This document shows, piece after piece, positions 4,886 through 47,757 of a stretch of 64,000 nt of DNA. How positions within the stretch are numbered: the first letter of the stretch is position 1; each line of letters begins with the position of its first letter. Below the pieces are notes generated by a model. It saw only the letters and a list, made by a program, of their open reading frames with translations, was not told the origin of the DNA and made no database searches. Position numbers and translations under genes: made by a program. The DNA lies in contig JAJRRW010000068.1 of the NCBI GenBank assembly GCA_024279115.1, positions 22,860 to 86,859 of the forward strand, written 5' to 3'. The stretch is from Alphaproteobacteria bacterium (lineage in GTDB: Bacteria > Pseudomonadota > Alphaproteobacteria > Rhizobiales > JAKIUO01).

Positions 4886-4927
4886 AATTAAATTCCTCCA
4901 AGTTTTACAGCATGCATGACGTCCCTG

Positions 4928-6607: not shown

Positions 6608-6638
6608 ATGGCTGTTCCCTTTCTCACTACTTCCCTGG

Positions 6639-6757
6639 TTCTTTATTGTAACCTGCTTCTTATCGAAAAACCGGTGCCCACTTTTGTCGGAAGCACTCTT
6701 TGCTCTACCGTGCTTCTTATCGAAAAACCGGTGCCCACTTTTGTCGGAAGCACTTTA
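6639..6757. repeat. Tandem pair of repeat module D (44-bp perfect direct repeat, 57-bp period)
   Basis: tgcttcttatcgaaaaaccggtgcccacttttgtcggaagcact occurs at 6654-6697 and identically at 6711-6754. The same family recurs at 25116-25182 and 39284-39350. It has an internal gtgcttc/gaagcac stem. Confidence 0.8.
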
Positions 6758-7447: not shown

Positions 7448-7577
7448 GACCCGAGCGTTAGCAGAAAAGCCAAGAATCAGATAGCGGCTTATTCATAGCG
7501 ATAGCTTTGGCGCAGGTTTTTCGGCCAGTTACCGTAGACATAAAACAGGCTTTTACAAGGGCTTGACACGCTTGTAT

Positions 7578-8174: not shown

Positions 8175-8441
8175 TTCGAACCCTCCCTATGGAATGTCGG
8201 TATGACCACGAAAGTCACCTTCTGACAAACGCCCCCCCCAATAACAGCCAGGCCAGCCTCACACGAGCTAGAATTGACATGCCCAAACTCAACCATGCGA
8301 ACAATCTTCATGGGGGCTGCGCTGTATCTTGAGGTGCAAAAGCGGCGCGAACTGGTTTTTATATTGAACCAGATCCAGTGTCGAAACGACAAATAAATAT
8401 AGGCTTCAAGCTTATGCTTATTTAATTCAAAGGAGTGGACA

Positions 8442-8786
8442 ATGATTTACAAGATTTTACTGACCTCTATCGCCATCGTGATGAGCACCACTATCGGCAG
8501 CGCCATGTCATTGGGTCCAGCCACCTCGCAACTGGGAGCATCCGTTGGCAACAACCAGCTGCAATTGATCGCGGACCGAAAAGACACGCGATCGAAACGG
8601 CGCGGTAGCCGCCGTAATACTAACAAGCTGTCGGCCTCACGAGGAGGCGTCAAAGACACCTGCCCTGGCGGAAACAAGCCCTGTATCAAAAAGCTTAAAG
8701 CCAGTTGCGACAAAGCCGGTGGCGGATTATCGACCGAGCCAGATGGCGGCGTGGACTGCTATGTCGTTGGTATTCATGACCAATAG
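8442..8786 (+). CDS. Small secreted basic/Cys-containing hypothetical protein
   Basis: RBS aaaggag lies 8 nt upstream. N-terminal signal-like MIYKILLTSIAIVMSTTIGSAMS. No family recognised. Confidence 0.5.
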   Translation: MIYKILLTSIAIVMSTTIGSAMSLGPATSQLGASVGNNQLQLIADRKDTRSKRRGSRRNTNKLSASRGGVKDTCPGGNKPCIKKLKASCDKAGGGLSTEPDGGVDCYVVGIHDQ

Positions 8787-9035
8787 TAGATGAGCCCCGG
8801 CGATATGAGGCTTGGAATGTTCCCCCTGGCATTTCGAGCCTCGAATTCCCTCTGGCGAGGTAATCCCAATGACAAGGGCGGGACCACCAATGCGGCCCCG
8901 CCCTTCAAATTTCGATATGTGTCACCCCAGCGGGGGCTGGGGTCCATACTCCCTTGCCCCTCAATTGAGAGAATGAACCCCCAATCGAAAGACTTGTGTA
9001 TGAATCCTCGCCTGCGCGGGGATGACAAATTCAGT

Positions 9036-10223: not shown

Positions 10224-10618
10224 CGCATCTTCCTCTAAGGTAACTATCATAATTGCGGGCCCTGATCACACCGATACCCGACGAGATGGTCGATCATGAC
10301 AGGTTCAAATAATGTGATGGGCTGCTTTCGTTTATCCATCACAGCGCTTTATTGCAAGCCCCCCAACCGCCCTTATTGACGCATTATTCCCCTTAGAACC
10401 TCCCTTATCGGCGCCAAACATTGATGCAAACCCCCGGCTTTTTAGGGACATTTATTAAAAAATCAGAAGATTTGAACATTCGAAAATTTACAGATATGAA
10501 AATTTGCGCTATGTCTGGCGGAAAGAATACCAAAACCGATCCCCTTTATAACCAGTCAGCTCGCTATTGGGTCTGGCAATTTGAAGTATGGATCACCATG
10601 AGGATGGAGGCTTTTTGC

Positions 10619-12289: not shown

Positions 12290-12306
12290 TAAGAGGGTAA
12301 AGAGTT

Positions 12307-14577
12307 ATGAGCGAAGAAGTTTTCGAACACAAACCCGCCGCCTATCTGTGCGGTGGTTGCGGCATCAAGGATGCTCTGGATATGGATGCGCTGGAAACAG
12401 CCATCACCGGCGGCATGATGGTCTCCAATGTCAAACAGTCCGATGCCTTTTGTTCCGGCAAGGGCCTGGAGACGATCAAGAGCGACATGAAAAGCGGCGA
12501 CGTCAATCAAGCCATTGTAGCTGGTTGTTCGCCGCGGGTCATGGTGCAGGAATTTAATGAGGTCGGCGGTCAGGTGTTTCGCGCCAATATGCGTGAACAG
12601 GTGATCTGGCAACAGCCCGCCAATAACGAAGACACGCAGGCCCTGGCCACCGATAATATGCGCATGGCCATTACCCAGGCCCGCAAGTCCGAGCCACCCC
12701 AGGCTCATTGGGATGGCGCAACCTCTTTGAAACTACTGGTGGTCGGCGGTGGTATCACCGGCCTGACAGCGGCGCGCGAAGCCTCCAAAACCGGTGCCCA
12801 AGTGGTGATTGTTGAAAAGACCGACAAGCTGGGCGGCTGGGCTGGCAAATGGAGCAAATTCATTCCCGAAAATGCCCCGTACCGCGAGCCTGAAGACAAT
12901 CCCGTCCCTGCCCTCATCGCCGAAGTCGAGAACGATGACAATATCACGGTATTGTTCGACACGATTGTCGATCGCACCGAAGGTGGTCCAGGTGAATTTT
13001 CCTGCCGCCTGAAAAATGGTTCGGGGACCAATTGGGATATTTATGGCGCGGTGGTTTTGGCCACGGGCTGGCGTCCTTACACCAGCGAAGATCAAAAGAA
13101 ATTCGGCATCGGCGAAACCGATGGCGTTGTCACCGACATTGAGATGGAAGAAAAGCTGTCCTCTGGTGATCTCAAAGATGTCAAAAATATCATCTTCATC
13201 ATCCCCGGCGATAGCGACCGCATGGTCTACAGCTCCGGCGTCTCTGACAAGGTGGCCATCAAACAGGCTCTGCAAATGACGCAGGCCGATCCCGATGTGA
13301 TGGCCTATATCATTCATGAAGATTTCCGCTCTCATGGTCTGGCCGAAGAATTTTATCGCCACGCCCAGGAAAAAGGCGTCATCTTCCAGCGCGGCGAAGT
13401 GAAAAGCATCAGCTCTGATCGAACCGTCACCGTTGATGACGAGCTTCTGGGGCTGGAAATCCCCATGAGCGGCATTGATCTGGTGGTTGTCTCAACCGGC
13501 ATGGTTCCCAACTCCACCAATATTGATCTTGAGGCCACCGAAAGAGGCGCCGATCAATTAAAGTCCGACATCAACCCCGTTGCGCCGATCTTTACGGTCA
13601 ACGGGACGCAGGTTGACGAGGACCTCGCGGAAACGGCGGCTGACGCTGAAGCAGAGGAAACGATCCCCGAAGGGGGTCCTCTGCTCAACCTGCAATATCG
13701 TCAAGGACCCCATGTGCCGGTTCTGGCCAACGGCTTTGCGGACAGTCACTATATCTGCTTCCCCTATGAAACACGCCGCTCGGGCATCTACACGGCTGGT
13801 CCGGTGCGCCGCGCCATGACTGCCTCTGAAGCCATCAACGATGCACAAGGTGCCGTCCTCAAGGCCATTCAGGCCATGCGTCAGGCCAATGAGGCCAAGG
13901 CGGTTCATCCGCGTGCGGGCGATTTGTCGTTCCCAGAATTTGGTCTCGATATCTGCACCAAGTGCCGTCGCTGCACGGTGGAATGTCCGTTCGGTGCCAT
14001 TGATGAAGATCCTGAAACTGATTATCCAGTGGTCAACCCGACGCGTTGTCGTCGTTGCGGCACCTGCATGGGCGCTTGTCCCGTGAGCACCATCAGCTTC
14101 AAAAACTACAATCCGGCCCAGGTCTCCGACATGGTTGCCGCTGGTACAGAAGAGTGCCCTCCCGACAAACCACGTATTCTGGTGCTGGCTTGCGAGAACG
14201 ATGCTTATCCGGCAATGGATATGGCGGGCATTAACAGACTTGAAGCCAGTCCCTATATGAGAGTGATACCGGTGCGCTGCCTTGGCTCCGTGACCCTTTT
14301 GTGGGTCAAAACGGCGCTGGAAAAAGGCTATGATGGCATCATGCTGCTGGGCTGCAAATCCGGCGATGATTATCAGTGTCATTTCGTCAAGGGATCCGGC
14401 ATTGCGCAAGAACGCATGAGCAAGGTGGGTGACACGCTACGCTCCATGATGATGGAAGAAGAACGGGTCCAGGTCAACGAGATCGCCATCGCCGACAGCG
14501 AGCGGGTCACACAGATCCTCAATAATTTTGGCAAGCAGATCGAAGATATCGGTCTCAACCCATTTAAAGGATTTTAG
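12307..14577 (+). CDS. qmoB: QmoB-like HdrA-family flavoprotein with two ferredoxin motifs and a C-terminal MvhD-like domain
   Basis: VVGGGITGLTAA. Ferredoxin motifs CTKCRRCTVECP and CRRCGTCMGACP. The C-terminal ILVLACENDAYPA..VRCLGSV..GCKSGDDYQCHF matches the MvhD/FlpD type. Confidence 0.9.
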   Translation: MSEEVFEHKPAAYLCGGCGIKDALDMDALETAITGGMMVSNVKQSDAFCSGKGLETIKSDMKSGDVNQAIVAGCSPRVMVQEFNEVGGQVFRANMREQVIWQQPANNEDTQALATDNMRMAITQARKSEPPQAHWDGATSLKLLVVGGGITGLTAAREASKTGAQVVIVEKTDKLGGWAGKWSKFIPENAPYREPEDNPVPALIAEVENDDNITVLFDTIVDRTEGGPGEFSCRLKNGSGTNWDIYGAVVLATGWRPYTSEDQKKFGIGETDGVVTDIEMEEKLSSGDLKDVKNIIFIIPGDSDRMVYSSGVSDKVAIKQALQMTQADPDVMAYIIHEDFRSHGLAEEFYRHAQEKGVIFQRGEVKSISSDRTVTVDDELLGLEIPMSGIDLVVVSTGMVPNSTNIDLEATERGADQLKSDINPVAPIFTVNGTQVDEDLAETAADAEAEETIPEGGPLLNLQYRQGPHVPVLANGFADSHYICFPYETRRSGIYTAGPVRRAMTASEAINDAQGAVLKAIQAMRQANEAKAVHPRAGDLSFPEFGLDICTKCRRCTVECPFGAIDEDPETDYPVVNPTRCRRCGTCMGACPVSTISFKNYNPAQVSDMVAAGTEECPPDKPRILVLACENDAYPAMDMAGINRLEASPYMRVIPVRCLGSVTLLWVKTALEKGYDGIMLLGCKSGDDYQCHFVKGSGIAQERMSKVGDTLRSMMMEEERVQVNEIAIADSERVTQILNNFGKQIEDIGLNPFKGF

Positions 14578-14579
14578 AC

Positions 14580-15179
14580 ATGACAGTCCCTATGCCGACA
14601 TCCAGTCGCAAATATGATCTCAATTTTGCCCGCTGGGTCCGCGACAATGTCGCGGGCGGCGACAAAATGAACATGTGCATGCAATGCGGCACCTGTTCGG
14701 GTTCATGTCCCATCGGCACAGAAATGGAAGATGGTCCGCGCAAACTGTTCATGATGATCAGAGCCGGCATGAAAGAAGAAGTGCTTTCCTCCAATTCTGT
14801 TTGGGAATGTACCAGCTGCTATCGCTGTGTGGTACGATGCCCGCGCGGCGTCCCTGTCACCTATCTGATGCAGGGCCTGGCGGCTCTTGCCTCCAAAGAG
14901 GGCTATGCCCCCAAAGTTGAGAACAATTATTTCTCGCGATATTTCTGGAAGAGTGTTGAGCTTACCGGCAAGACCGATGAACGCCTTGTGCCCACGGCCT
15001 ATTTCTTCTCATTTGGCCTGATCGAGGGCATCAAGCGCTCACTTGGCAATCTGAAGATTGCCTTCAACATGGCCAAAGCTGGACGCATGCATATCGGACT
15101 GCCTCACCGCATCAAGGATACCAAAGGCCTCAAGGCCATCCTTGCCAAAGCCGCGCAAATCGAAGATCAAAAAAGCTAG
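14580..15179 (+). CDS. hdrC: HdrC-like 4Fe-4S dicluster subunit
   Basis: CMQCGTCSGSCP and CTSCYRCVVRCP motifs. Starts 2 nt after the qmoB stop. Confidence 0.8.
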   Translation: MTVPMPTSSRKYDLNFARWVRDNVAGGDKMNMCMQCGTCSGSCPIGTEMEDGPRKLFMMIRAGMKEEVLSSNSVWECTSCYRCVVRCPRGVPVTYLMQGLAALASKEGYAPKVENNYFSRYFWKSVELTGKTDERLVPTAYFFSFGLIEGIKRSLGNLKIAFNMAKAGRMHIGLPHRIKDTKGLKAILAKAAQIEDQKS

Positions 15180-25076: not shown

Positions 25077-25182
25077 CTAGGGTCTTTCCGTTTTAGGTTG
25101 ACAAAATGAAAGCCCCTAGCTCTTTGTTTTATCGTGCTTCTTATCGGAAAACCGGTACCCACTTTTCTCGGAAGCACTCTAA
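25077..25182. repeat. Adjacent repeat modules C and D joined at CTAG
   Basis: ctagggtctttccgttttaggttgacaaaatgaaagcccctag, followed by ctctttgttttatcgtgcttcttatcggaaaaccggtacccacttttctcggaagcactcta. The same modules occur at 39083-39125 and 39284-39350. Confidence 0.8.
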
Positions 25183-25249
25183 TCGGGGTTTGGGGACTAG
25201 TCCCCAACGCTGTCTGCGAAGACGCCCGTCCGGCGAGGACATTACTTTT

Positions 25250-28200
25250 CTACTGCACAACCGCGCCCTCACCGACCACCACAAAAGGGGCCCAATAGGA
25301 GGGGTGCGAGGCCAGATCATCGTCTTTCTTTTGAAGCACCCACAACATGGCCAGACGCAGCGCCTCGGCTCTGCCAACGGGCTGACCGGCGGTTTGCCCC
25401 TCGTCAATATATTTGAAGGCTTTGGTGGTCAGCAAGGTGGCGGCGTCTGAATAGACCGGCCAGTGGGAGACCAGCAGCGATTTGGCGCCTGCGTAAAAGA
25501 ACGCCTGCGCCAGACCTGACAGAGCTTCGGCCCCCGGCTTATCGCCAGAGGCGGTGTTGCAGGCCGACAGCACAACCCAGTCCGCATTGAGGTGCAATTG
25601 CGTAACTTCTGATGCGGTGAGCAGGCCATCGTCGATAGTGGTGGCCTTTTGCGGCACACTGAGCGCCAGAGCGGGCTCCCCCAATCCCTTGATATCTCCC
25701 GATATCAGCCCGTGCGTGGCGAAATAAACGATCTTGTGACGCGCCAGTTCACCAGACTTGTTCAACTGTTTGACAATGGCCTCGCTGGCCCCTCGCCCCA
25801 GCTTGATGTCGCCAAGCGGTACATTGAGCGTCTTGGCGACATTGATCAGCTCGTCTCTGGTGTCGGGCAATTGCGACAGCTGTGACAGGGCCGCCAGGTT
25901 GACCTGCCCACCGCGATAAAAACTGGCAAAACCAGCCGTGTTCGAGACCCGCGCGATGGGCTTTTTTTGTTGCGAAAACACCGGATCTCCAAAACCGATC
26001 AGGGCCTTAGGCGGGCTGTCGCTTTTACCGGCAAACTGGCGCAAGGCTTTGAGGGAGGCGATACTTGGCAAAGTGGTCAGGGCATATTTTTTAATCAACC
26101 AGCTTGCCTCGCGATAGATTTGACTTTCGCCTGGCGCGCCAGATGTGGGCGGGTCGGTGATCAACACCTGAAACGGCAGACCGGTCAAGGCGTCCGACGC
26201 GATGATGATCAGATGTTTCTTGCTGCCGATGACGTCTTCGAGGGGTTGCAGCAGATCCTTGTAGAGCTTGTGCGAAGCATCCAGATCAAACGAGGTTTTG
26301 ACTTTCACCTCCAGGGCCGGTTGCGCATTTGATGCAAACCCCCTTGTGCCAGCGGTCAGCGGATTGAGGGAGAGCCGCAAATGGGCTACCTGTTTGCGCA
26401 ATTCGCTGCGCTTCAGGGGCACCCGGTGCCAGGCGAATTGTGTATTGGTCAGCGCCCAGATATAAACCGCCTGATTGGAGGTCATGAAATAAATCAGCGC
26501 CTCATCGCCTTGAAGCTGTTTTTGAACATCGCTGCCGGTCAGCGGTTGGGGATTGGCAAGGCTGGCATATTCAGGAAACTGCGCAGCCAGTTTTTGATCA
26601 AGGCTTTTGATCTTGTCGCCGACCTCGATGAGCGAAACCCGCAGCCTTTTAATCGCCGCACCATCACGCGATTTGCTGGTCGCACCAACCAGGGAGGCCA
26701 GCTTGCTATCGAGTTTGGTATAACGCCGTGTGAGGTACTGACGGTGGCGCACATTGCTGGCCAACTGCCCACTACCCGCCGCAAAACGCGCCGACATTTG
26801 CGCAAGAGCCGCGCCTGCCGAGGTGCGAAGGGCTTTTTGCGCCGCATGCAACCCCTGTTCCATCAAGGCATCGCGATTTGAGCCGGTTTTTTGCAGCAGA
26901 TCCTTGTTGCTGGCCACATGCCACGAGGTGATCGCCAGACCGGAAAACACACCGCGACGCCCGCCGCCTTTGGCATCATTTTTACCTTCTTGTTTATGGA
27001 TCAGTTGCAGTTCTTCAATGCGCGCGGCCCGGCGATAATTGGCAAGGGCAACAAGATAGTTCTGCTGCCACAGATAAAGCTTGCCCATCTGATAATGAAT
27101 ATAGCCGGTTTTGATATGATCGCGACCATTGGCCTTGATGGAAATCTCCAGCGCCTTTTTATAATGGCGCTCAGAAGCGACATAATCCTGGCGGGCAAAA
27201 TCATTTTCGCCAAGCAATCGCCAGATATTGGCCAGCATGGGATGGTTTTCGCCAAAGGCTTTTTGATTGATCGCGATGGCTTTACGAAACAGTTTTTCCG
27301 CGCCTATATAATCTTTGCGATTGCCGTAAAGAGCGGCCAGATTGCTCATGGCAAGGGCCACTTGCGGATGGCGGGGGCCATAGGCCTTGAGCAGCGCATC
27401 CATGGCCAGCTTATAGGTCTTTTCAGCCGCCACAAATCGCTTGGCGATGCGATAGGAGCCGGCCAGATTATCATAAAATACGCCGATCTGTGGATCGGAG
27501 GGCCTTGCGGGTTTTAGATAGATGGCAATTCCACGCTCTTGCAGCTTTATGGCCTCGCCTGTGCGGCCCTGATAGCCATAGACAGCGGCCAGATTGTTCA
27601 GGGCCAGCGACACCGTGCGATGCTCGGGACCCAGATTTTCTTCAAATAGGGCCAGCGCTTTCTTGTGAAATTTCTCGGCCACATCAAATTTCTCAATCTC
27701 GATATTGAGCACACCAAGATTGTCGTAAAGACGCCCCAGATTGATCGGTTTGGCATTGCTGGCATCCAGATGAAAAGCCAGCGCTTTTTTATAAGCAGCG
27801 CCACTTTCGCCATAACGCCCGGTTTCGCGGTACAGCCCGCCCAGATTGCTGTAAACTGCACTTAATGTGGTTTTTTTTGGTTTTGATCGGGCCTGCTCGC
27901 GTTTGAGCGCCGTCTTCATCAAAGTCTCGGCTTTCTTGAATCTGGCGATTTGACGATTGAGCTGACCCAGAAAAATCATCGCATGAATGACTTTGGTGGC
28001 GCTTTCGCCCTCTTTTTTTATGAGAATTTCAAGGCGCCGCGCATAGACTGGTACCGCCGCTTCATAGCGCCCCAGATCCTCATAAAGCGTCGCCAGATTA
28101 CGCAGATGAACCAGTAATTGCGGGCTGTCTTTCCCTTCTTTTTTTTCGGTAATTTCAATCGCCCGCACCAGCGCCCGCCCCGCCAGGTCAAAATCCTTGG

Positions 28201-36628: not shown

Positions 36629-36730
36629 TTCATCTCGCGGTTATTCGCGCTATGCTTGGGCCTCTGCCGGGGCACGCATAGCGTGACGGCCCGTCGGCCT
36701 TGCCGAAGGGTACTTCGGAATTTATGATCC

Positions 36731-36901
36731 CTAAGAGCCCAATTCAAAACGCCTCACTGATTTTATTGGCTTTTTACGGCTCATTATCGGCGCAAATCGC
36801 CTTGAAAGGGACGCCAGCCCCGTTCTGCGACAATTTGCTTGATTCTGAACCGGAAAAAGCCAATAAAATCAAGCAATGAGTTTTGAATCGAACTCTAAGA
36901 G
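36731..36901. repeat. MITE-like element with roughly 45-bp imperfect terminal inverted repeats
   Basis: ctaagagcccaattcaaaacgcctcactgattttattggcttttt pairs with aaaaagccaataaaatcaagcaatgagttttgaatcgaactctaagag. Confidence 0.55.
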
Positions 36902-37009
36902 AATCATTATTTGCCGCTGATTATTCGATTGAGATAATATCAGGATGCAACATAATTGACCATTGGCATCCTGGTATAAAACGACCGTCAACCAAATCGA
37001 GCGCATGCA

Positions 37010-37477
37010 ATGTCCAGCCCTGATGCCAAACGTCTTGCCCAAACAACCGTTCGCAGGCTTGATGACGGCTATTGGACCGCTGGCTATATCACCCCTGAAG
37101 ATCTGAAAATGGCGGCCGATTGCGGCTTCAAATCCATCGTCAATATCCTGCCCAAAGATGATACCGACCAGCATATGAGCGATGCACAGGCCAAGGAGCT
37201 GGCTGAAACATCTGGCCTTGAATATCGCTACATGCCGCTCTATGGCCATCAGGTCAATAATCAATATATCGCCACAGCCTATGGCTCGATGATCAAAGAA
37301 CTGCCCGAACCCGTCTTGAGCTATTGCCGCTCGGGCACTCGCGTGACGCTCTTGTGGGCGATGATCCACGCTGGCAAACTGGATATTGACGACATGCTTG
37401 ATCGGGCGCTCGATAATGGCTACGACATTGAGGTCATCAAGGAAGATCTTGAGAGAGTGTCAAAGAAACGCAAATAG
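37010..37477 (+). CDS. DUF442/TIGR01244 family (Blh N-terminal phosphatase-like sulfur-transfer domain) protein
   Basis: GFKSIVNILP..EYRYMPL..SYCRSGTRVTLLWA pattern with the CxxxxxR loop typical of DUF442. Confidence 0.75.
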   Translation: MSSPDAKRLAQTTVRRLDDGYWTAGYITPEDLKMAADCGFKSIVNILPKDDTDQHMSDAQAKELAETSGLEYRYMPLYGHQVNNQYIATAYGSMIKELPEPVLSYCRSGTRVTLLWAMIHAGKLDIDDMLDRALDNGYDIEVIKEDLERVSKKRK

Positions 37478-37555
37478 CCCTTTTGTTGCGAACAGGTCGG
37501 GCACCGTTGTTTCAGCACGCACGATAAAAGAGACAATAGATCGATAGGAACAGAT

Positions 37556-38590
37556 ATGATTTTTCGCCAATTATTTGACAGTGTTTCATGTACTTACAGC
37601 TATCTCATTGCCAGCAGAGCTGGTGGGGAGGCCTTGATTATTGATCCGGTACTGGAAAAGGTGGATCGCTATTTGACCCTCATTGACGAGCTTGATCTCA
37701 AACTGGTGAAGGCCGTTGACACCCATTTGCACGCCGACCACATCACGGGGCTTGGCGCTTTGCGCGACAAAACCCGCTGCATCACCGTGATGGGGGAGCA
37801 AAGCCTGGTCAATGTGGTGTCCATGCGGGTCGCGGACGGCGATCATATTGATATTGAAGGCGCTCGCCTTGATGTGTTGTACACCCCTGGCCACACGGAC
37901 GATAGCTACAGCTTCTTGATGGGCGACCGTATCTTCACGGGCGATACGCTGCTGATCCGCGGCACGGGCCGCACCGACTTCCAAAATGGCGATGCGCGGT
38001 CTCAATATCATTCCATTTTTGATCGACTTTTGAAGCTGCCCGAACAAACGCTGGTCTATCCAGGCCACGATTACAAAGGCGATACCGTCAGCACGATTGG
38101 CGAGGAAAAAGCCTTTAACCCGCGCCTGCAAGTGCAATCAATCGACGAATATGTCGACCTCATGAGTAATCTCAATCTGCCCAATCCCAAATTGATGGAT
38201 GTCGTTGTTCCCGAAAATATGAAAATTGGACTGGTGCAAAAAGAAAATGCCAAATGCGGCTGGTCGTTGACCGCCCAGCAGGTGGCAGAGCTCAAGGACA
38301 AACCTGATATTTTGTTTGTTGATCTGCGCGATGACAATGAACGCAAAAAAGATGGCATCATCGAGGGCTCAATCCATGTCCCCTATCCCGACTTGCAAGA
38401 ATGTCTTGCTGATCATGGAAAGCTAAGAGCGCAAGCGCTCGACCATAATAAGCGTCTGGTGTTTTTATGTAGCTTTGGAGAGCGCTCCGCCATGGCAGTG
38501 CGCGCTGCCCAGGATCAGGGCCTATCAACCGCCTGCCATATCGCTGGCGGCATCAATAATTGGAAACCCGCTGATCGGTCAACGGGCTGA
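37556..38590 (+). CDS. Persulfide dioxygenase (ETHE1-type MBL fold) fused to a C-terminal rhodanese domain
   Basis: THLHADHITG, YTPGHTDDS and GDTLLIRGTGRTDF are ETHE1/PDO-like. The C-terminal FLCSFGERSAMA..AGGINNW is a rhodanese active-site loop. Confidence 0.85.
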   Translation: MIFRQLFDSVSCTYSYLIASRAGGEALIIDPVLEKVDRYLTLIDELDLKLVKAVDTHLHADHITGLGALRDKTRCITVMGEQSLVNVVSMRVADGDHIDIEGARLDVLYTPGHTDDSYSFLMGDRIFTGDTLLIRGTGRTDFQNGDARSQYHSIFDRLLKLPEQTLVYPGHDYKGDTVSTIGEEKAFNPRLQVQSIDEYVDLMSNLNLPNPKLMDVVVPENMKIGLVQKENAKCGWSLTAQQVAELKDKPDILFVDLRDDNERKKDGIIEGSIHVPYPDLQECLADHGKLRAQALDHNKRLVFLCSFGERSAMAVRAAQDQGLSTACHIAGGINNWKPADRSTG

Positions 38591-38689
38591 AGATCATCTC
38601 GCGCCAATACAACCAACATATTCACTGCACCCGTTAGCGGGTGCGGGGCGTCCATAGCGACCATCTTCAAAATACTTCAAGAGATCAAT

Positions 38690-38917
38690 ATGAAAAAGTA
38701 TAATCACATAGGAATCCCGACAACCGAAAAGAAAGAAGGTGAAGTTCATCTCCCTCATCTAAAGATGTTTGTCACTGACCACGAAAAAAGCCCAAACAAA
38801 ATTCAATGGATACGTTTTGAGGACGATGCCCCGTGTTTTCTAGCCACCTTGCGGTTTTCTTTTTTTTCAAAATTGCTGGGCGACCGCATCCCGCTTTTGC
38901 CAAGCTTTGGATTGTAG
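38690..38917 (+). pseudogene. Probable truncated gene (possible glyoxalase/VOC-like N-terminal fragment)
   Basis: MKKYNHIGIPTTEKKEGEVHLPHLKMFVTDHE..IRFEDDAP reads like a real N-terminus. The frame then runs into low-complexity repeat DNA right at a CTAG (38840-38843). The family call is from memory only. Confidence 0.3.
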
Positions 38918-38956
38918 AAAAATTCCAATAGCGATGTCAGCTTACGAAATAGGCTA

Positions 38957-39086
38957 AACTGTCCAAAGCGTGGGTGGGGCCTCTGTTCGAAAACATCGCT
39001 TCCCGGGCTTGACCCGGGATCCAGGGCAAGGAACAAAAATTTCACACGAAAACAGATCCTTGTTCTGGGCCCCGGATCTGCGCTAG
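38957..39086. repeat. Repeat module A, copy 1
   Basis: gcttcccgggcttgacccgggatccaggg...ttctgggccccggatctgcgctag. Closely similar to 41327-41456. Confidence 0.75.
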
Positions 39087-39125
39087 GGTCTTTCCGTTTT
39101 AGGTTGACAAAATGAAAACCCCTAG
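39083..39125. repeat. Repeat module C (43 bp, CTAG to CTAG)
   Basis: ctagggtctttccgttttaggttgacaaaatgaaaacccctag. Near-identical copy at 25077-25119. The ends ctaggg/cccctag are inverted. Confidence 0.75.
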
Positions 39126-39287
39126 AGCGGTTTGCATTCACTCCCGGCCAGAAACAGCTGAACAGTTTTGCTTCGGTTTCAAGTTAAGAAATGCAGGATA
39201 TATCTGGATATTTTCAAATTTCTTGACGCCGAAAACGGCGCAAAAATATCGGCTGGAATGATTGCGGGTGAACGCAAACTGCTCTAG
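39122..39287. mobile_element. 166-bp MITE (module E) with 20-bp terminal inverted repeats, inserted at a CTAG
   Basis: Left end ctagagcggtttgcattcac. The right end gtgaacgcaaactgctctag reverse-complements to ctagagcagtttgcgttcac, an 18/20 match. It separates modules C and D, which are directly adjacent at 25116-25119. Confidence 0.75.
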
Positions 39288-39350
39288 CTCTTTGTTTTAT
39301 CGTGCTTCTTATCGGAAAACCGGCACCCACTTTTCTCGGAAGCACTCTAG
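39284..39350. repeat. Repeat module D (CTAG to CTAG)
   Basis: ctagctctttgttttatcgtgcttcttatcggaaaaccggcacccacttttctcggaagcactctag. Copies at 25116-25182 and 6639-6757. Confidence 0.8.
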
Positions 39351-39488
39351 CGCTTGTCCGGGGAGCTGTTGATTTTATCTCACGGCGAATCCGTGCCAGC
39401 GCGGGCCTGCGATGGGGCGGCCTGTTCGGCGCTCGCCCGGTCGAGCTCTGATGGAGCCATGTTCGAGGTTTTTTCTTCGAAACGCACC
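39347..39488. repeat. Repeat module B, copy 1
   Basis: ctagcgcttgtccggggagc...gcctgcgatggggcggcctgttcggcgctcgcccggtcgagctctg. Similar to 41453-41629. Confidence 0.7.
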
Positions 39489-39716
39489 GTTTTTGCTGCG
39501 TAAGTTGCAGCCTCGTCCATTTGCCTGTGCGTCACCGCCATATGCGCTAAGAGCGCAAGCGCTCGACCACAATAAGCGTCTGGTGTTTTTATGTAGCTTT
39601 GGAGAGCGCTCCGCCATGGCAGTGCGAGCCGCCCAGGATCTGGGCCTATCAACCGCCTGCCATATCGCCGGCAGCATCAATAATTGGAAACCCGCTGATC
39701 GGCCAACGGGCTGAAG
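39485..39716. pseudogene. Chimeric remnant: TPR-gene fragment (minus sense) fused to a duplicate of the last ~55 codons of the PDO-rhodanese gene (plus sense)
   Basis: 39485-39562 is about 85% identical by eye to 40905-40982 inside the TPR gene. 39546-39716 matches 38422-38592 with about 7 mismatches. The join falls in the shared gctaagagcgcaagcg. Confidence 0.8.
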
Positions 39717-39753
39717 AGAGGGGACTAAGTTTTCTATTAAGTACAATTAGTAA

Positions 39754-39960
39754 ACTGTCACCGTAATTCCAAGATCGACAGGTAATGCGGATTCAAGAAA
39801 TAGACAGGGGCAGGAAATCTTAGAGGGCATTTTGGCAAGTAGCAATCGGAGTACGAGAACTCGACCTACTTTTTACGATATCTTTGACAATAATACGGGT
39901 CGTGGAGTAAGATTCGACTCAGGCAACAGAATGGTTGGTTTTTTGGATGCGTCGAGATGA
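39754..39960 (+). pseudogene. Start-less 68-codon open frame, possibly an orphan C-terminal fragment of a larger (toxin-like?) gene
   Basis: The frame is open from just after TAG-TAA (39748-39753) to TGA at 39958-39960. That stop overlaps the next ORF's ATG (ATGA). There is no start codon apart from an internal ATG 9 codons before the stop, and the DNA is low-GC. The function is speculative. Confidence 0.2.
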
Positions 39961-40208
39961 AAAAAGAAGATATATTAGTGCTGATATGTAGTGACTATCG
40001 TTATGAAGAAGTGATTGCGGAAATCAATATTGACGATAAATTTGTAGCCCAGCTTAACCAGGAAGCTGGTTTGGATAATTTGGTAATCGAGTTTCCTGCT
40101 GCGGATGATGATGAAGATGCGGTGCTAAGAAAGGTCGATCTTGCCGATTTTGAGAAGGGATTGGCATTGGCTAAAAAAAGAATTCGAAACGAGGAGGATG
40201 TTTCATAA
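39957..40208 (+). CDS. Small acidic hypothetical protein (immunity-protein-like size/composition)
   Basis: 83 aa, lower GC than its surroundings, with an ATGA overlap with the upstream open frame. No family recognised. Confidence 0.45.
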   Translation: MKKEDILVLICSDYRYEEVIAEINIDDKFVAQLNQEAGLDNLVIEFPAADDDEDAVLRKVDLADFEKGLALAKKRIRNEEDVS

Positions 40209-40347
40209 ACCCTACAATCTTTTCGGAACTACGCTTCAATTACGGGAATGGTATTGATGTCCCATTCGGCTTCGAAATGAGCCATATTGGAGTTACGGCA
40301 ACAGTTTACTAAATGCACTTAATTCGCCTCAATCACCCTTAACCAAC

Positions 40348-41193
40348 CTACACTCCCACGTGTTTCCCCAGCAAACCCGCCACAATCTTTGCCTCTTTCA
40401 TCTTGCCAACACTCGCATAAAACTTTTCTGCCTGCTGCCAGTTACTGCAGGCTTCCGACACATTGGCTAGTTTCGACCAGGCATTGCCCATATTGGCATA
40501 ATCTGCCGCAAGCTCGGCGCGATCATTTTTCGCTTCATTCAATTTGGCGCGCCTTGAAAAAATCTCGATGGCCTTTTGAAAGTCGCGCAATATAAAATGC
40601 AGCGAGCCAAGATAACCCAGCGTGTGAATGATTTCCTTTTGACGGTTATCCTTATCCCATGTGACCAATGACTTTTCAAACATAGCCTTGGCCTCACTGA
40701 ATTTCTTCTGGCGGCGCAGGATCAGCCCGAGATTGCCAGTGGCTTCAGCAGCACTGATCTCATCCCCCGCTTGCTCGAACCCGGTGACGGCCTTGCTGTA
40801 AAACTCTTCCGCCTTGGCAAAATCACCCTTCATGTGATGCAGCACCCCAAGATCCTCATAGGCCACCGCCTGCCATTTCACATTCGCACCGCTTGCGCGA
40901 AGCTGCACCGCCTTTGCTGCGTAAGTTTCACTCTCGTCCATTTGCCTGTGCATCATCGCCAGATGGGCTAACAGCGCCAGCGGCTTGATATTATCCTGAT
41001 CGACTTGCACCGCTTTGAGAAACGCATCTTTGGCCTTTTCGCCATTGCCTTGCAGGTACACCGCCGCAAGATTGATATAGGCCTGCGACCTTTGGGCGGG
41101 CGTCACCGCCTTCGATGCCACATAGGCATCGGCAACAGATTGAAAGACCGGGTTACGGTGACAGCTTACTAAATATACTAAACATTCGCCCAT
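40348..41193 (-). CDS. TPR-repeat protein (N-terminus possibly truncated/remodelled)
   Basis: Repeated A..Y..LG..y...g.y.kA TPR periodicity. The first ~15 codons are encoded by the 23-bp repeat at 41150-41172, so the N-terminus looks non-native. Confidence 0.65.
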   Translation of the reverse strand: MGECLVYLVSCHRNPVFQSVADAYVASKAVTPAQRSQAYINLAAVYLQGNGEKAKDAFLKAVQVDQDNIKPLALLAHLAMMHRQMDESETYAAKAVQLRASGANVKWQAVAYEDLGVLHHMKGDFAKAEEFYSKAVTGFEQAGDEISAAEATGNLGLILRRQKKFSEAKAMFEKSLVTWDKDNRQKEIIHTLGYLGSLHFILRDFQKAIEIFSRRAKLNEAKNDRAELAADYANMGNAWSKLANVSEACSNWQQAEKFYASVGKMKEAKIVAGLLGKHVGV

Positions 41194-41326
41194 TCCAAAT
41201 AGGCTGTCGCTTCCGCAACCAGCTCATCGCGGAATTTAGACGCCTACTCAATCACCAAATTCCTGGATCAACATCCCTCCAACATCTCATTTTGATCTTC
41301 GATCATGACTATACAAAGATCTGCCG

Positions 41327-41456
41327 AATTGTCCAAAACCTGGATGGTGTCTCAGTTTGAAAGCATTGCTTCCCGGGCTTGAACCGGGATCCAGGGAAAG
41401 TAACAAAATTTTCACACGAAAACAGATCGTTATTCTGGGCCCCGGATCTGCGCTAG
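41327..41456. repeat. Repeat module A, copy 2
   Basis: Homologous to 38957-39086. It ends in gcgctag, directly joined to module B. Confidence 0.75.
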
Positions 41457-41629
41457 CGCTTGTCCGGGGAGCCATTATTCAAGCTGGGGGCACCACCAAA
41501 GGCGGCGCCGTTTTTGCATATCTCACGGCTATTCTTCGCTGCGCAAAGGCCTGCGATGGCGCGGCCTGTTCGGCCGTCGCCCGGTCGGGCTCTGGTGGTG
41601 CGGTACTCAAAGAGTCGTAGTCGAAACAC
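41453..41629. repeat. Repeat module B, copy 2
   Basis: Homologous to 39347-39488 (ctagcgcttgtccggggagc...gcctgcgatgg..gcggcctgttcggc). Confidence 0.7.
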
Positions 41630-41693
41630 GCTCAATTAAACCCTCAACTCCCTTCTTGCTTTGCCGTGAGCGCCGCCGGTGATATGACGATTT

Positions 41694-45911: not shown

Positions 45912-47495
45912 CTATTCCGCGGGGACAGCCGCGCCTGGTACAGGCTGGGGAACGGTGACATCGCCGATGCGGCCACCTTGTTTTTTACCTGATGTTTCCA
46001 GATCGATCTCCAGATCTTCCGTGTTTTTGTGCAGCAGGCTACCGGTTGTTGCGCCGGTATTGCGAGCTCCAAGACGAACCAGGAAGATCAGCAAGCCAAC
46101 GAGGGCCAGCCACCACAGGCCGAGAATGATTTTCTGCCCGACAATCGAATTGGGAGAAATATATTCGTACCATTTATAGGTCTCGATCAGCAGCGTGCTT
46201 TTCAAGAACGCCTTGTGGGCATCGTAGAACAAGGTGAAGGGCAGATAGCCAAGGGCAAACCCCATGAAACCGACCCAGGTGTTGAGATAGCCCATGCCAA
46301 TCCGCATATAGGAGCGGATTTCACAGCCAATCAACATCACGGCCCCCGAGCCAAGCAACAATCCGCCAATCAGATTGCCAACGGTTGTTTGATATTTGAG
46401 CGCCCCGGAAAAAGCGGGACCGACATCAAACAAAGCCCAGACAAACACAATGAAACCAAGCATCACAACCCAGGAGGCAACAATACCGATCAGTGGCAGA
46501 TAGCCTCTCATCAGGGTGCGGGTGATGCGCGGCACGCCCATTTTGGCAAATTTACTGTCATTATTGGTCATGGGCTGGGCGACTTCCATGGCGACCAGCG
46601 AACATTCCGTACCAAAGCCACTTTTGGCCATACCAAAGCCACCGACAATCCCGGCCAGCAAGGTCGTAACGACATAGAACCAGCCCTTGGCATCAATGGA
46701 TTTACTGAACGAAACCAGTTCACCCTTTTTAAGATGTTGCAGGCTTTCGGGGTTGAACAAGCCGCCATAAACGGCAACCCCGAACATGGCGACCGAGAAT
46801 AACAGGGCGAGCCAGAAGATGGGCCGTCTGGTGCCATTATACCCGGCTTTATAGGTGGCTGCTTCGCCGCTATCATTGCCTTTGGCATAAGACAGCGTTT
46901 CTTGATGCTTGAAGAACGGCGCAATGCCCGTGCGGCTCATGACCCAAAAGGCACCGGCTCCGCCAATGGCCATCATGCCAGCTGTGACAAAGGAGTGGAT
47001 ATTGAGCAGGGGAATACCGCCGAGCAGATGGTTGAGTGTGCACCCCCCCGCCAGCCTTGTACCATAGCTGAACAACACGCCGCCCAGAAAGGAAACGAAC
47101 AGCACGCGGGCAGGATAATGGGCCCAGATGCGGCTTTCCTTTTCGGCGCGCGTGACCAGCCAGCCACCGATCATCATGCCGACAATCGGCCAGCCGACAC
47201 CGGGAATAAACGCCCCGCCGGTTGAGGCGATGCCGTCAATGGCTTTGCCATAGAGTTCAAAATCTGGCAGATTGAACAGATTATAAAAGGAGACCTCAAG
47301 CCCCCGGAACATCTTGCCAAGATCCGTTGTAACGGTGATGGGTTTGAGAGTTGGTGTTTTGCCGGCCTGTACTTTTGACACCCACAGGCCGATCATATAG
47401 ATCACCTGCGCGATACCAAAAGTGATACCGGCCCAAAAGAACGGCCATTGTTTGCTCATGGCCCTCCTCCATAAAGTTTCTTTCGCCTTTGACAT
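45912..47495 (-). CDS. YeeE/YedE-family sulfur-compound transport protein (long form)
   Basis: Polytopic. Motifs GTRLAGGCTLNH and IGCEIRSYMR are typical of sulfur-transport domains. The start at 47495 (MSKAKE) has ggagg 8 nt upstream. Confidence 0.85.
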   Translation of the reverse strand: MSKAKETLWRRAMSKQWPFFWAGITFGIAQVIYMIGLWVSKVQAGKTPTLKPITVTTDLGKMFRGLEVSFYNLFNLPDFELYGKAIDGIASTGGAFIPGVGWPIVGMMIGGWLVTRAEKESRIWAHYPARVLFVSFLGGVLFSYGTRLAGGCTLNHLLGGIPLLNIHSFVTAGMMAIGGAGAFWVMSRTGIAPFFKHQETLSYAKGNDSGEAATYKAGYNGTRRPIFWLALLFSVAMFGVAVYGGLFNPESLQHLKKGELVSFSKSIDAKGWFYVVTTLLAGIVGGFGMAKSGFGTECSLVAMEVAQPMTNNDSKFAKMGVPRITRTLMRGYLPLIGIVASWVVMLGFIVFVWALFDVGPAFSGALKYQTTVGNLIGGLLLGSGAVMLIGCEIRSYMRIGMGYLNTWVGFMGFALGYLPFTLFYDAHKAFLKSTLLIETYKWYEYISPNSIVGQKIILGLWWLALVGLLIFLVRLGARNTGATTGSLLHKNTEDLEIDLETSGKKQGGRIGDVTVPQPVPGAAVPAE

Positions 47496-47757
47496 GCTTA
47501 AAACCTCCAATTTTGCTGTATTGTCCCCCATGCCTTTCTGGCTCGTTCAGGGGGGTATTGATGGAGGCTAGGTTATGGGGATAGGATAAACTGCTACCTA
47601 GGTATCATCAGGAGAGGTAAAATCTGCGACATATACGACCTCGCGCCCCTCACCGGACAATAATCGCTCAACCATGTAACCAATTGTGGCTATGACCTTG
47701 GGTTCCAAGATCATCCAGCTCTAAAATAGCAAGAGAGTAGAAAGCAGATAAAACCAT

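What the first reader, a model, noticed from the sequence alone, without database searches (positions are those of the whole stretch)
38957..39488. Nested insertions of CTAG-bounded MITE-like modules, with an empty-site comparison inside the same window
Seen in sequence:
- At 41453-41456, module A is joined directly to module B through a single CTAG.
- In the paralogous copy at 38957-39488 the same A and B are separated by three extra modules, each delimited by CTAG. These are C (39083-39125), E (39122-39287) and D (39284-39350).
- At 25077-25182, C and D are adjacent through one CTAG, so E is absent there.
- E has clear 20-bp terminal inverted repeats (ctagagcggtttgcattcac / ctagagcagtttgcgttcac, 18/20 match).
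- D also occurs as a tandem pair at 6639-6757.

Established knowledge: IS630/Tc1-mariner-type elements and some IS5-group elements insert at TA within CTAG-like targets, and they spawn non-autonomous MITEs.

Inference: this genome hosts several families of small non-autonomous elements that repeatedly target the same CTAG, producing stacked insertions. No transposase is present in the window.
Basis: partly seen in the sequence, partly recalled or inferred. Interest (0 to 1): 0.58.

Follow-up and report, generated by a model that had tools for sequence, protein, structure and literature searches.

The report
Nested small transposons in Bru-RS repeat
A non-coding stretch of this alphaproteobacterial chromosome is a three-deep stack of small non-coding mobile repeats, each inserted at a TA inside the rare CTAG word of the one below; the middle layer belongs to the Bru-RS repeat family of Brucella, so the finding is real and tidy but of a known kind.

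Summary
CTAG is rare in the window (44 sites against about 94 expected), yet it marks every module boundary.

The modules are not five equal units:
- C plus D form one Bru-RS-type repeat. A profile built from 26 Brucella melitensis Bru-RS elements aligns end to end with 25080-25180 (E 1.7e-8).
- D is the conserved hairpin of that family. It occurs widely in Alphaproteobacteria and shows compensatory base changes.
- E is a 160-bp MITE. It has 18/20 terminal inverted repeats and folds as a full-length hairpin. It sits at the internal CTAG of the C+D unit, and the E-free C+D unit at 25116 serves as the empty site. A second copy lies in an unrelated context in a related MAG. Its ends (TAGAGCGGTT) match the ends of Bru-RS module 2.
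- A plus the first ~35 nt of B form a third, 149-bp MITE that also occurs in a relative. The rest of B is a duplicated gene flank.

So E lies inside a Bru-RS-like unit, which lies inside another MITE. Both insertions show a TA/CTAG target duplication. The responsible transposase was not found. An IS5/IS427-type (IS711-like) or IS630-type enzyme is inferred.

Verdict: new members of known kinds, with modest interest.

The parts
38976..39082 (+). The left terminal repeat starts at about 38976. The segmental paralogy with copy 2 extends about 20 nt further left, to 38957.
   Evidence: 88% identical to 41346-41452. The terminal repeat is shared with the element at L002:4979-5135.
39083..39086 (.). 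CTAG holding the left copy of the TA (or CTAG) target duplication made when the C+D unit inserted into MITE-G.
   Evidence: The empty site has one CTAG at 41453-41456; the filled site has CTAG at 39083 and at 39347.
39086..39122 (-). Module C, a small palindrome in the position of Bru-RS module 2.
   Evidence: The twin copy at 25080-25116 aligns with positions 64-103 of the Bru-RS profile within a full-length hit, at low posterior probability. It is self-complementary (I5).
39125..39284 (.). Element E, a 160-bp MITE flanked by TA at 39123-39124 and 39285-39286, each within a CTAG. The terminal inverted repeats are GAGCGGTTTGCATTCAC and GAGCAGTTTGCGTTCAC.
   Evidence: Terminal repeats of 20 nt at 90% complementarity, counting the CTAG. 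Full-length DNA hairpin, -35.1 kcal/mol, z -6.2. E is absent between C and D at 25116-25119. A second copy, 88.6% identical, lies at L152:10683-10824 next to a GST gene with a TTAG flank.
39287..39347 (-). Module D, equal to Bru-RS module 1: a conserved hairpin (outer stem GTGCTTC/GAAGCAC, inner stem GAAAA/TTTTC) followed by the A-rich tail GATAAAACAAAGAG.
   Evidence: Bru-RS profile hit 39348-39276(-), E 6e-9. Partial Rfam matches to Brucella sRNA CI408 and CI27. Covariance model hit of 78.9 bits.
39347..39350 (.). CTAG holding the right copy of the target duplication of the C+D insertion.
39351..39380 (+). Truncated right terminal repeat of MITE-G copy 1 (the start of module B).
   Evidence: Aligns with 41457-41494 and with the right terminal repeat of the L002 element.
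39381..39488 (+). The rest of module B: a duplicated copy of the sequence that follows the ABC ATPase gene (segment H).
   Evidence: Aligns with 36629-36704, 41505-41627 and the equivalent flanks in L001, L002 and L004.
41346..41494 (+). MITE-G copy 2, uninterrupted. Its internal CTAG at 41453-41456 is the empty site for the C+D insertion and lies in the palindrome CCCCGGAtctGCGCTAGCGCttgTCCGGGG.
   Evidence: The junction is confirmed in a near-identical strain (L149 and L161).
25077..25182 (-). Intact C+D unit of Bru-RS type. It is 100 bp between its flanking TAs and 106 bp from CTAG to CTAA. The CTAG at 25116-25119 is the empty site for E.
   Evidence: Bru-RS profile positions 2-103, E 1.7e-8. 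98% identical to the C and D at 39 kb.
25183..25250 (.). Module F, another dispersed palindromic repeat with the core GGGGACTAGTCCCC, directly next to the C+D unit.
   Evidence: Also found at about L153:10665-10735, downstream of a GST gene in a relative.
6639..6757 (-). Tandem pair of module D alone (57-nt period), with no internal CTAG. The flanks are CTGG and TTAA.
   Evidence: Bru-RS profile hits on module 1 only, E 2.6e-5 and 1.9e-4.

Best explanation
The locus is a three-level nest of small non-autonomous DNA elements in a hypervariable intergenic island.

Layers:
- Layer 1 is a 149-bp MITE (here called G), equal to module A plus the start of B. It is present in two segmentally duplicated copies.
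- Layer 2 is a unit of 100 bp with two hairpins (D plus C) that belongs to the Bru-RS family of palindromic repeats. It inserted at the TA of the CTAG inside one G copy and duplicated that target.
- Layer 3 is E, a 160-bp MITE with 17-20-bp terminal inverted repeats. It inserted at the TA of the CTAG that separates the two hairpins of the Bru-RS-like unit, again duplicating the target.

Inferred mechanism:
- A DDE transposase encoded elsewhere in the genome binds the GAGC(R)GTT... ends, excises or copies the element, and integrates it by staggered cuts at TA within YTAR.
- The enzyme is most likely of the IS5 family, IS427 group (IS711-like); IS630/Tc1-type is the alternative.
- CTAG is depleted in the genome but is built into the ends and centres of these repeats. 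The repeats therefore offer the preferred targets and the elements pile into one another.

Shown: the anatomy, the target duplications with their empty sites, membership of C+D in the Bru-RS family, and the independent occurrence of E.
Inferred: the transposase family, and that the Bru-RS-type unit itself moves by the same route.
For: - Boundaries and empty sites were read directly. One CTAG at 41453 corresponds to CTAG at 39083 and 39347. One CTAG at 25116 corresponds to CTAG at 39122 and 39284.
- CTAG is rare: 44 against 94.5 +/- 9.3 expected.
- E has 18/20 terminal inverted repeats and folds as a full-length hairpin with z -6.2. An 88.6% identical copy lies in MAG Vin_4, 21 nt after a GST stop codon, flanked by TTAG and with no C or D nearby. 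That contig ends inside E. The orthologous site in a relative lacks E.
- A different 190-bp MITE with related ends (CTAG|AGCAGTTTGCATTCAC ... GAATGCGAACTGCC|CTAA) lies in a soil metagenome contig.
- C+D matches a profile of 26 B. melitensis Bru-RS elements (sequences from the supplement of PMC2267715). It matches the window over the full length at 25180-25080 (E 1.7e-8). At 39348-39276 it runs from D straight into E's terminal repeat, as if that repeat were module 2 (E 6e-9).
- The two C+D copies differ at 2 of 106 positions, which points to a recent copy event.
- Every flank seen fits YTAR: CTAG|CTAG, CTAG|CTAA, TTAG, TTAA.
- Bru-RS-type hairpins are absent from 190 kb of relatives at 80-85% identity, against 4 copies in this 64 kb. 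This patchy distribution fits a mobile element.
- Published precedents: IS711 duplicates TA in YTAR and prefers Bru-RS (PMC3163539, PMC2266754). The IS5-derived 100-nt MITEPsy1 duplicates CTAG or YTAA (PMC3189936). IS630 family elements duplicate TA; a reference title cited in PMC2170065 reports preference for TA in 5'-CTAG-3'.
- An IS5-family element in Asticcacaulis is flanked by CTAG on both sides.
Against: - No transposase with matching ends was found. None lies in the window, and exact-pattern scans of genomes, metagenomes and viral contigs found none.
- E has only one complete copy available, so its copy number in this genome is unknown.
- The direction of each event (insertion versus precise loss between CTAG repeats) cannot be proved from two alleles.
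- The D hairpin shows compensatory changes across genera and occurs as a tandem pair without CTAG. This suggests selection on structure, or a spreading mechanism other than classical cut-and-paste.
- The terminal inverted repeats of the C+D unit are weak (8 of 11).
- A 2-bp TA duplication cannot be told apart from a 4-bp CTAG duplication.
Confidence: 0.7

Rival explanations
1. The modules are REP/BIME-like or RIME-like structured repeats. They would spread by a route other than a DDE transposase, for example a RAYT-type Y1 transposase acting on hairpins, replication slippage or gene conversion. CTAG would be the conserved foot of each hairpin rather than a target duplication.
For: - The D hairpin is conserved from Brucellaceae to Caulobacterales, with covariation in 10 of 17 pairs (score 0.334 against 0.121 +/- 0.021 in shuffles, 0 of 500 reaching it).
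- D occurs as a head-to-tail tandem without CTAG.
- Hairpin 1 combines with different second palindromes in different genera, as in mosaic elements.
Against: - At both nested junctions the empty allele has exactly one CTAG and the filled allele has two. That is the signature of a staggered-cut insertion.
- E has long terminal inverted repeats and no REP-like GT(A/G)G head.
- No Y1 transposase domain was found in the window, although such a gene could lie elsewhere.
Confidence: 0.15
2. C-E-D is the ancestral composite. The 25-kb copy lost E by precise deletion or excision between the two CTAG repeats, and A2|B2 likewise lost C-E-D. On this view the 'empty sites' are secondary.
For: Direct repeats of CTAG flank each unit, so slippage or excision could remove a unit cleanly. 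With only two alleles per junction the direction is formally ambiguous.
Against: - E occurs alone in an unrelated context in another genome.
- The E-free arrangement C+D is the canonical Bru-RS layout in Brucella and other genera.
- The relative's G element at L002:4979-5135 has no internal C+D.
Confidence: 0.08
3. The whole 38957-39488 block is one composite repeat copied by segmental duplication or recombination. The modules never moved separately.
For: The surrounding 38.4-41.7 kb is full of segmental duplicates. These include a rhodanese C-terminal fragment at 96% identity, a TPR gene fragment at 86%, and three copies of the ABC gene flank. The two A-B copies themselves arose in this way.
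Against: C+D occurs without A, B or E at 25077. D occurs alone at 6639. E occurs alone in L152. G occurs without an insert at 41346 and in L002.
Confidence: 0.03
4. The modules are functional RNA or regulatory elements (small RNAs, terminators, mRNA stabilisers). Their arrangement would reflect selection at this locus rather than mobility.
For: D gives partial Rfam matches to two Brucella 'sRNA' families (CI408, E 1.7e-6; CI27). The hairpin is conserved with covariation.
Against: - The matches cover only 58 of 435 model positions and score far below the gathering threshold (30 against 398 bits).
- Only one terminator-like site (40504-40519) was found in 38.5-41.8 kb, fewer than in shuffles, and it lies outside the modules. 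The promoter-like sites found give no transcription unit for the modules.
- In the two cases examined, copies lie in either orientation relative to flanking genes.
- A structural role for D would not explain the target duplications.
Confidence: 0.04

Closest known systems
Bru-RS1 / Bru-RS2 palindromic repeats of Brucella (Halling and Bricker 1994; family members listed in the supplement of PMC2267715)
   Same: - The C+D unit has the same length class: 106 bp from CTAG to CTAA, against 103-106 bp.
- It has the same layout: TAG, hairpin with a GAAAAG...GGTTTTC core, A-rich tail, TAG, second palindrome, TAG.
- It matches a Bru-RS profile along its full length (E 1.7e-8).
- It is intergenic and multi-copy.
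- Its internal TAG has received a TA-duplicating element, as Bru-RS does with IS711 (PMC3163539, PMC2266754).
   Different: - The host is not Brucella. It is an uncultured relative at about 52% GC that carries aprAB, sat and qmo-like sulfur genes.
- The outer stem sequence differs (GTGCTTC).
- The second palindrome (C) is only weakly similar to Brucella module 2.
- The inserted element is a 160-bp MITE rather than the 842-bp IS711.
- Here an empty-site comparison shows the Bru-RS-type unit itself flanked by a target duplication.
IS711 (IS6501), IS5 family, and related IS427-group elements
   Same: TA duplication within YTAR and a preference for Bru-RS repeats are published for IS711. The flanks of E, of C+D and of the L130 element all fit YTAR. 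An IS5-family element in Asticcacaulis (L155:6546-7394) is flanked by CTAG on both sides.
   Different: No transposase gene is present. I could not obtain the IS711 inverted-repeat sequence, so similarity between E's ends and IS711's ends is untested. The ends of the Asticcacaulis element (GGCTCAGG) differ from those of E.
MITEPsy1 of Pseudomonas syringae (IS5-derived; PMC3189936)
   Same: A ~100-nt non-coding element with 18-nt terminal inverted repeats that inserts at CTAG or YTAA and duplicates the target. Its mobility has been shown experimentally.
   Different: The sequence is unrelated, the host is a gammaproteobacterium, it duplicates 4 nt, and no nesting into structured repeats was reported.
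IS630 / Tc1-mariner family elements and their MITEs
   Same: They duplicate TA. A reference title cited in PMC2170065 reports that IS630 prefers TA within 5'-CTAG-3'.
   Different: E's ends were not compared with any IS630-family end. From memory, a GAG... terminus is more typical of IS5-family subgroups.
RIMEs (Rhizobium-specific intergenic mosaic elements) and E. coli BIMEs
   Same: They are intergenic mosaics built from a few palindromic modules in varying combinations. Rhizobium sp. NXC24 carries a unit with the same hairpin-tail-TAG-palindrome layout as C+D (L160).
   Different: BIMEs are built from REPs that are linked to RAYT transposases, and no sign of that was found here.

Membership tests
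Bru-RS palindromic repeat family (applied to C+D) | Sequence similarity to Brucella Bru-RS elements | tested here: met
   An HMM was built from 26 full-length B. melitensis Bru-RS sequences (supplement of PMC2267715). nhmmer against the window gave 25180-25080(-), profile 2-103, E 1.7e-8; 39348-39276(-), E 6e-9; and two module-1-only hits at 6.6-6.75 kb. No other window hit had an E-value below 1.
Bru-RS palindromic repeat family (applied to C+D) | About 103-106 bp and palindromic, with two hairpin modules | tested here: met
   The unit is 106 bp from CTAG to CTAA at 25077-25182. Hairpin 1 folds like the Brucella consensus. C is self-complementary (I5).
Bru-RS palindromic repeat family (applied to C+D) | Dispersed, multi-copy and intergenic | tested here: met
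   The 64 kb holds two full units and two module-1 copies, all between genes. The rest of the genome could not be read.
Bru-RS palindromic repeat family (applied to C+D) | Preferred target for a TA-duplicating insertion element | tested here: met
   E sits exactly at the internal CTAG with a target duplication, and the empty site is at 25116. The published property concerns IS711 (PMC3163539, PMC2266754).
MITE (applied to E) | Small, non-coding, with terminal inverted repeats | tested here: met
   E is 160 bp with 18/20 terminal inverted repeats and no conserved ORF. The only open frame is interrupted in the second copy, and no protein homologue was found.
MITE (applied to E) | Target-site duplication, shown by an empty site | tested here: met
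   C|D has one CTAG at 25116-25119. C|E|D has CTAG at 39122 and 39284.
MITE (applied to E) | Several dispersed copies | tested here: inconclusive
   There is one copy in the window and one in a related MAG, in a different context and at a contig end. No copy was found in plasmid, viral or JGI metagenome collections.
MITE (applied to E) | Autonomous partner IS with the same ends | tested here: inconclusive
   Exact scans with 16- to 19-nt end patterns returned only chance hits, the second E copy and one other MITE. These scans are insensitive to diverged ends.
IS5 family, IS427 group (IS711-like), as the source of the transposase | TA duplication in a YTAR target | tested here: met
   Flanks seen: CTAG|CTAG for E, TTAG for E in L152, CTAG|CTAA for the L130 element and for C+D at 25 kb, CTAG|CTAG for C+D at 39 kb, and TTAA for the D tandem. 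The same flanks also fit IS630.
IS5 family, IS427 group (IS711-like), as the source of the transposase | A DDE_Tnp_1-type transposase whose inverted repeats match E's ends | not testable with these tools
   The window has no transposase, the whole genome was not retrievable, and the IS711 end sequence is not given in the papers held.
IS630 / Tc1-mariner family, as the source of the transposase | TA duplication with a preference for CTAG | tested here: met
   The flanks are as above. This feature does not discriminate against the IS5/IS427 group.
IS630 / Tc1-mariner family, as the source of the transposase | Ends similar to those of a known IS630-family member | not tested
   No IS630-family end sequences were available for comparison.
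REP/BIME (RAYT-associated) | Conserved GT(A/G)G head on the hairpins and a RAYT (Y1 transposase) gene | tested here: not met
   The module ends read TA|GAGC, with no GTAG head. No Y1_Tnp domain was found among about 50 window ORFs. A RAYT gene elsewhere in the genome is not excluded.
RIME1/RIME2 of Rhizobium | Similarity to the published RIME consensus | not testable with these tools
   The defining paper (PMC177356) is not held. Only the general description of RIMEs as intergenic mosaic repeats could be read (PMC2573895).

The most novel reading that the evidence does not exclude
Bru-RS/RIME-type 'mosaic' repeats of Alphaproteobacteria may be true MITEs assembled from mini-modules that share TA|GAGC(G/A)GTT ends. 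On this reading the conserved hairpin module, the variable second palindrome and larger relatives such as E would all be moved by one TA/YTAR-targeting transposase lineage. They would insert preferentially into each other's terminal or central CTAG. That would explain how the mosaics arise and why IS711 favours Bru-RS. This window would be the first case in which a Bru-RS-type unit is caught with a target duplication next to its own empty site.
Probability: 0.3. Interest if true: 0.5.

Novelty: new member of a known kind. Interest (0 to 1): 0.3.

Why it matters
- The finding places an unnamed repeat cluster in a known family. It extends Bru-RS-type elements to an uncultured lineage that carries aprAB, sat and qmo-like sulfur genes.
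- The empty-site comparisons show that such units can be flanked by TA/CTAG target duplications. To my knowledge, how Bru-RS/RIME repeats spread has never been established.
- It is also a clean small example of self-nesting. Mobile elements that carry the genome's rare preferred target pile into each other instead of into genes.
- In practice, repeats of this kind break short-read assemblies and seed false small-RNA predictions. The Rfam 'Brucella sRNA' models CI408 and CI27 contain this hairpin.

Tried and rejected
- The single genome-contig scan used a 16-mer from E's end. That pattern was too short for 596 Gb, so almost all 118 hits were chance. Only L043 held a real E copy.
- The metagenome scan with a 19-mer gave 20 loci. 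Only L130 was a related element. The apparent inverted partner in L135/L142 lies in eukaryote-like sequence with no transposase.
- The viral-contig scan found nothing.
- BLAST of E against plasmids at a lax threshold gave only chance hits to enterobacterial plasmids.
- A protein search with E's longest reading frame found nothing, so E is not picked up as a spurious gene anywhere.
- Exact-protein look-ups meant to compare strains returned only contigs of 0.9-1.5 kb from three runs. These confirm the A2|B2 junction but do not reach E.
- The window's own 120-kb NCBI contig is listed in the collection, but its DNA could not be fetched.
- A profile of Bru-RS module 2 alone did not significantly hit C or E. 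The similarity of C rests on the full-length alignment, and that of E rests on its 10-11 terminal bases.
- A and A2 differ at two stem positions without clear compensation, so I dropped the idea that A is a structured RNA. Its terminal repeats identify it as a MITE instead.
- The RIME paper was not held, and the IS711 end sequence could not be found in the papers held.
Full report
**1. Checking the observation**

- Reading the four stretches confirmed every stated feature.
- At 38957-39488 the order is A, CTAG (39083), C, CTAG (39122), E, CTAG (39284), D, CTAG (39347), B.
- At 41327-41627 the paralogous A2 and B2 meet at a single CTAG (41453-41456).
- At 25077-25182, C and D meet at a single CTAG (25116). 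Each differs from the 39-kb copy by one base. This unit ends in CTAA rather than CTAG.
- E has 20-nt terminal inverted repeats at 90% complementarity.
- D also occurs as a head-to-tail pair at 6639-6757 with a 57-nt period. That pair contains no CTAG.
- CTAG is strongly under-represented in the window: 44 sites against 94.5 +/- 9.3 in dinucleotide-preserving shuffles. Four CTAGs falling exactly on the junctions within 270 bp is therefore not chance.

**2. What E is**

- E folds as a single-stranded DNA hairpin along its whole length (-35.1 kcal/mol, z -6.2).
- It has no conserved reading frame and no protein-level relative.
- A second copy, 88.6% identical, turned up in MAG 'bacterium isolate Vin_4'. 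It lies 21 nt after the stop codon of a GST gene, is flanked by TTAG, and has no C or D nearby. The contig ends inside it, as assemblies do at repeats.
- A relative whose GST is 94% identical has no E at that place.
- A different 190-bp element in a soil metagenome contig has related ends and CTAG/CTAA flanks.
- E therefore meets the anatomical criteria of a MITE. The C|D junction at 25116 is its empty site.

**3. What C and D are**

- D gave partial Rfam matches to two Brucella 'sRNA' models.
- BLAST with the Brucella consensus found the same hairpin on replicons named Ochrobactrum, Pseudochrobactrum, Bartonella, Rhizobium, Sinorhizobium, Shinella, Asticcacaulis and Azospirillum.
- Fifteen examples fold alike. 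The outer stem differs between genera but stays paired, there is a 3' bulge, the inner stem GAAAA/UUUUC is invariant, and a 3-bp tip covaries.
- On a covariance-model alignment the covariation score is 0.334 against 0.121 +/- 0.021 in shuffles (0 of 500 reach it). Ten of 17 pairs change on both sides.
- In the Asticcacaulis, Bartonella sp. HY328, Rhizobium sp. NXC24 and Martelella copies the hairpin and its A-rich tail are followed by a TAG-like word (ATGG in Martelella) and a second palindrome. In Agrobacterium vitis a second palindrome also follows, but the TAG there has decayed to CTTGG.
- The supplement of PMC2267715 lists the Bru-RS elements of B. melitensis, and they have exactly this layout.
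- A profile built from 26 full-length Bru-RS elements hits the window only at the four D sites.
  - It aligns end to end with the C+D unit at 25180-25080 (profile positions 2-103, E 1.7e-8).
  - At 39348-39276 it runs from D straight into E's terminal repeat, as if that repeat were module 2 (E 6e-9).
- C+D is thus one Bru-RS-type element. D is module 1. C stands in the place of module 2, with only weak similarity to it.
- E's ends (TAGAGCGGTT and TAGAGCAGTT) are the same as the ends of Bru-RS module 2 (TAGAGCGGTTCC).
- Neither the covariance model nor the profile finds a significant hit of this family in 190 kb from relatives at 80-85% identity. The family is therefore patchy, as mobile DNA is.

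**4. What A and B are**

- A plus the first ~35 nt of B make up a 149-bp element (41346-41494 in the uninterrupted copy).
- Its ends match both ends of a 157-bp element with 31-nt terminal inverted repeats in relative L002. It is a third MITE family, here called G.
- The CTAG that received C+D lies inside G, in the short palindrome CCCCGGAtctGCGCTAGCGCttgTCCGGGG.
- The rest of B is a copy of the sequence that follows the ABC ATPase gene. That sequence is present three times in the window and is conserved in relatives.
- Similarity between the two A-B copies extends beyond G on both sides. They therefore arose by segmental duplication within a variable island (36.7-41.65 kb) that carries different genes in each relative.

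**5. Mechanism**

- At both nested junctions the empty allele has one CTAG and the filled allele has two. This is what a staggered cut at TA (or at CTAG) produces.
- All flanks seen fit YTAR.
- Published systems behave the same way.
  - IS711 duplicates TA in YTAR and prefers Bru-RS (PMC3163539, PMC2266754).
  - MITEPsy1, derived from an IS5-family element, duplicates CTAG or YTAA (PMC3189936).
  - IS630 family elements duplicate TA, and a reference title cited in PMC2170065 reports preference for TA in 5'-CTAG-3'.
- An IS5-family element in Asticcacaulis is flanked by CTAG on both sides.
- I infer that a trans-acting DDE transposase of the IS5/IS427 type, or less likely the IS630 type, moved E and probably the Bru-RS-type unit as well.
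- This step is not shown. The window has no transposase, and no partner IS was found.
- The two C+D copies are 98% identical, whereas A and A2 are 88% identical. The C+D insertion is therefore younger than the A-B duplication.

**6. Rival explanations**

- A REP/BIME-like, non-DDE origin is kept at moderate weight. The reasons are D's covariation and the CTAG-free tandem pair. It does not explain the target duplications.
- Loss instead of gain of E is possible in principle. It is less economical, because E occurs alone elsewhere and the E-free C+D is the canonical layout.
- A single fixed composite is contradicted by the independent occurrences of each unit.
- A purely RNA-level function is weakly supported and would not account for the junctions.

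**7. Verdict**

- The parsing into five equal modules is not. There are three elements (G, the Bru-RS-type C+D unit, and E) plus a duplicated gene flank.
- The kinds are known: MITEs, Bru-RS repeats and TA/YTAR-targeting transposition.
- The members are new. The one point of wider interest is the direct evidence that a Bru-RS-type unit carries a target duplication and that its module 2 ends are shared with a larger MITE.

Noticed in passing
window 36700-41650; compare L001-L005: The stretch between the ABC ATPase gene and the UPF0262 gene is a hypervariable island. L001 has about 116 bp here. The window holds BLH-phosphatase, MBL-rhodanese, a TPR gene and pseudogene fragments. L002 holds a TIR-WD40 gene, L004 a Sel1 gene, and L005 HTH, AHSA1 and glyoxalase genes. 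Three diverged copies of the ABC gene's 3' flank lie at 36629-36704, 39381-39488 and 41505-41627.
   Followed up: partly
window 38422-38593 vs 39546-39717; 39484-39561 vs 40905-40982: There are segmental duplicates inside the island. One is a 96% identical copy of the rhodanese C-terminal coding end, and it still gives a Pfam Rhodanese hit as a 100-aa ORF. The other is an 86% identical fragment of the TPR gene. Both look like pseudogene debris.
   Followed up: partly
window 25183-25250; L153:10665-10735: Another dispersed palindromic repeat (module F, core GGGGACTAGTCCCC, about 70 bp) abuts the C+D unit. It recurs downstream of a GST gene in a relative, at the very position where MAG Vin_4 carries E.
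   Followed up: partly
window 2945-15179: This is a cluster of sulfur-metabolism genes: AprA-like and AprB (APS reductase), ATP sulfurylase, and three Qmo/Hdr-like FAD and Fe-S proteins including an FlpD domain. A Sulf_transp protein lies at 45912-47531. Together they suggest a sulfur-oxidising alphaproteobacterium at about 52% GC.
   Followed up: no
L130:6000-6197 (JGI contig Ga0307477_10000703): A ~190-bp MITE has ends related to those of E (GAGCAGTTTGCATTCA and GGGCAGTTCGCATTCA) and CTAG/CTAA flanks, but an unrelated GC-rich palindromic interior.
   Followed up: partly
L155:6546-7394 (Asticcacaulis excentricus pASEM-1): An annotated IS5-family element of about 850 bp is flanked by CTAG on both sides. 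It lies 1.5 kb from a Bru-RS-type two-hairpin unit at L155:5000-5110.
   Followed up: partly
Rfam RF02599 (BASRCI408) and RF02600 (BASRCI27): These Brucella 'sRNA' models contain the Bru-RS module 1 hairpin. They will therefore give partial hits on Bru-RS-type repeats in other Alphaproteobacteria.
   Followed up: no
window 41308-41335 (- strand) and 38911-38940 (- strand): Sigma-70-like promoter matches (10 of 12 positions) lie just left of each G copy and point away from it. One faces the TPR gene at 40348-41193. The duplicated flank may carry that gene's promoter.
   Followed up: no
L001:10220-10292: The D covariance model gives a weak hit (23.7 bits, E 0.022) immediately after infA in a relative. 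This may be a decayed copy or chance.
   Followed up: no
Martelella L151, Ochrobactrum L154, window 6635-6638: In several copies the boundary CTAG reads CCAG or CTGG instead. The repeated CTAG-to-CCAG/CTGG change could reflect the same pressure that depletes CTAG genome-wide.
   Followed up: no
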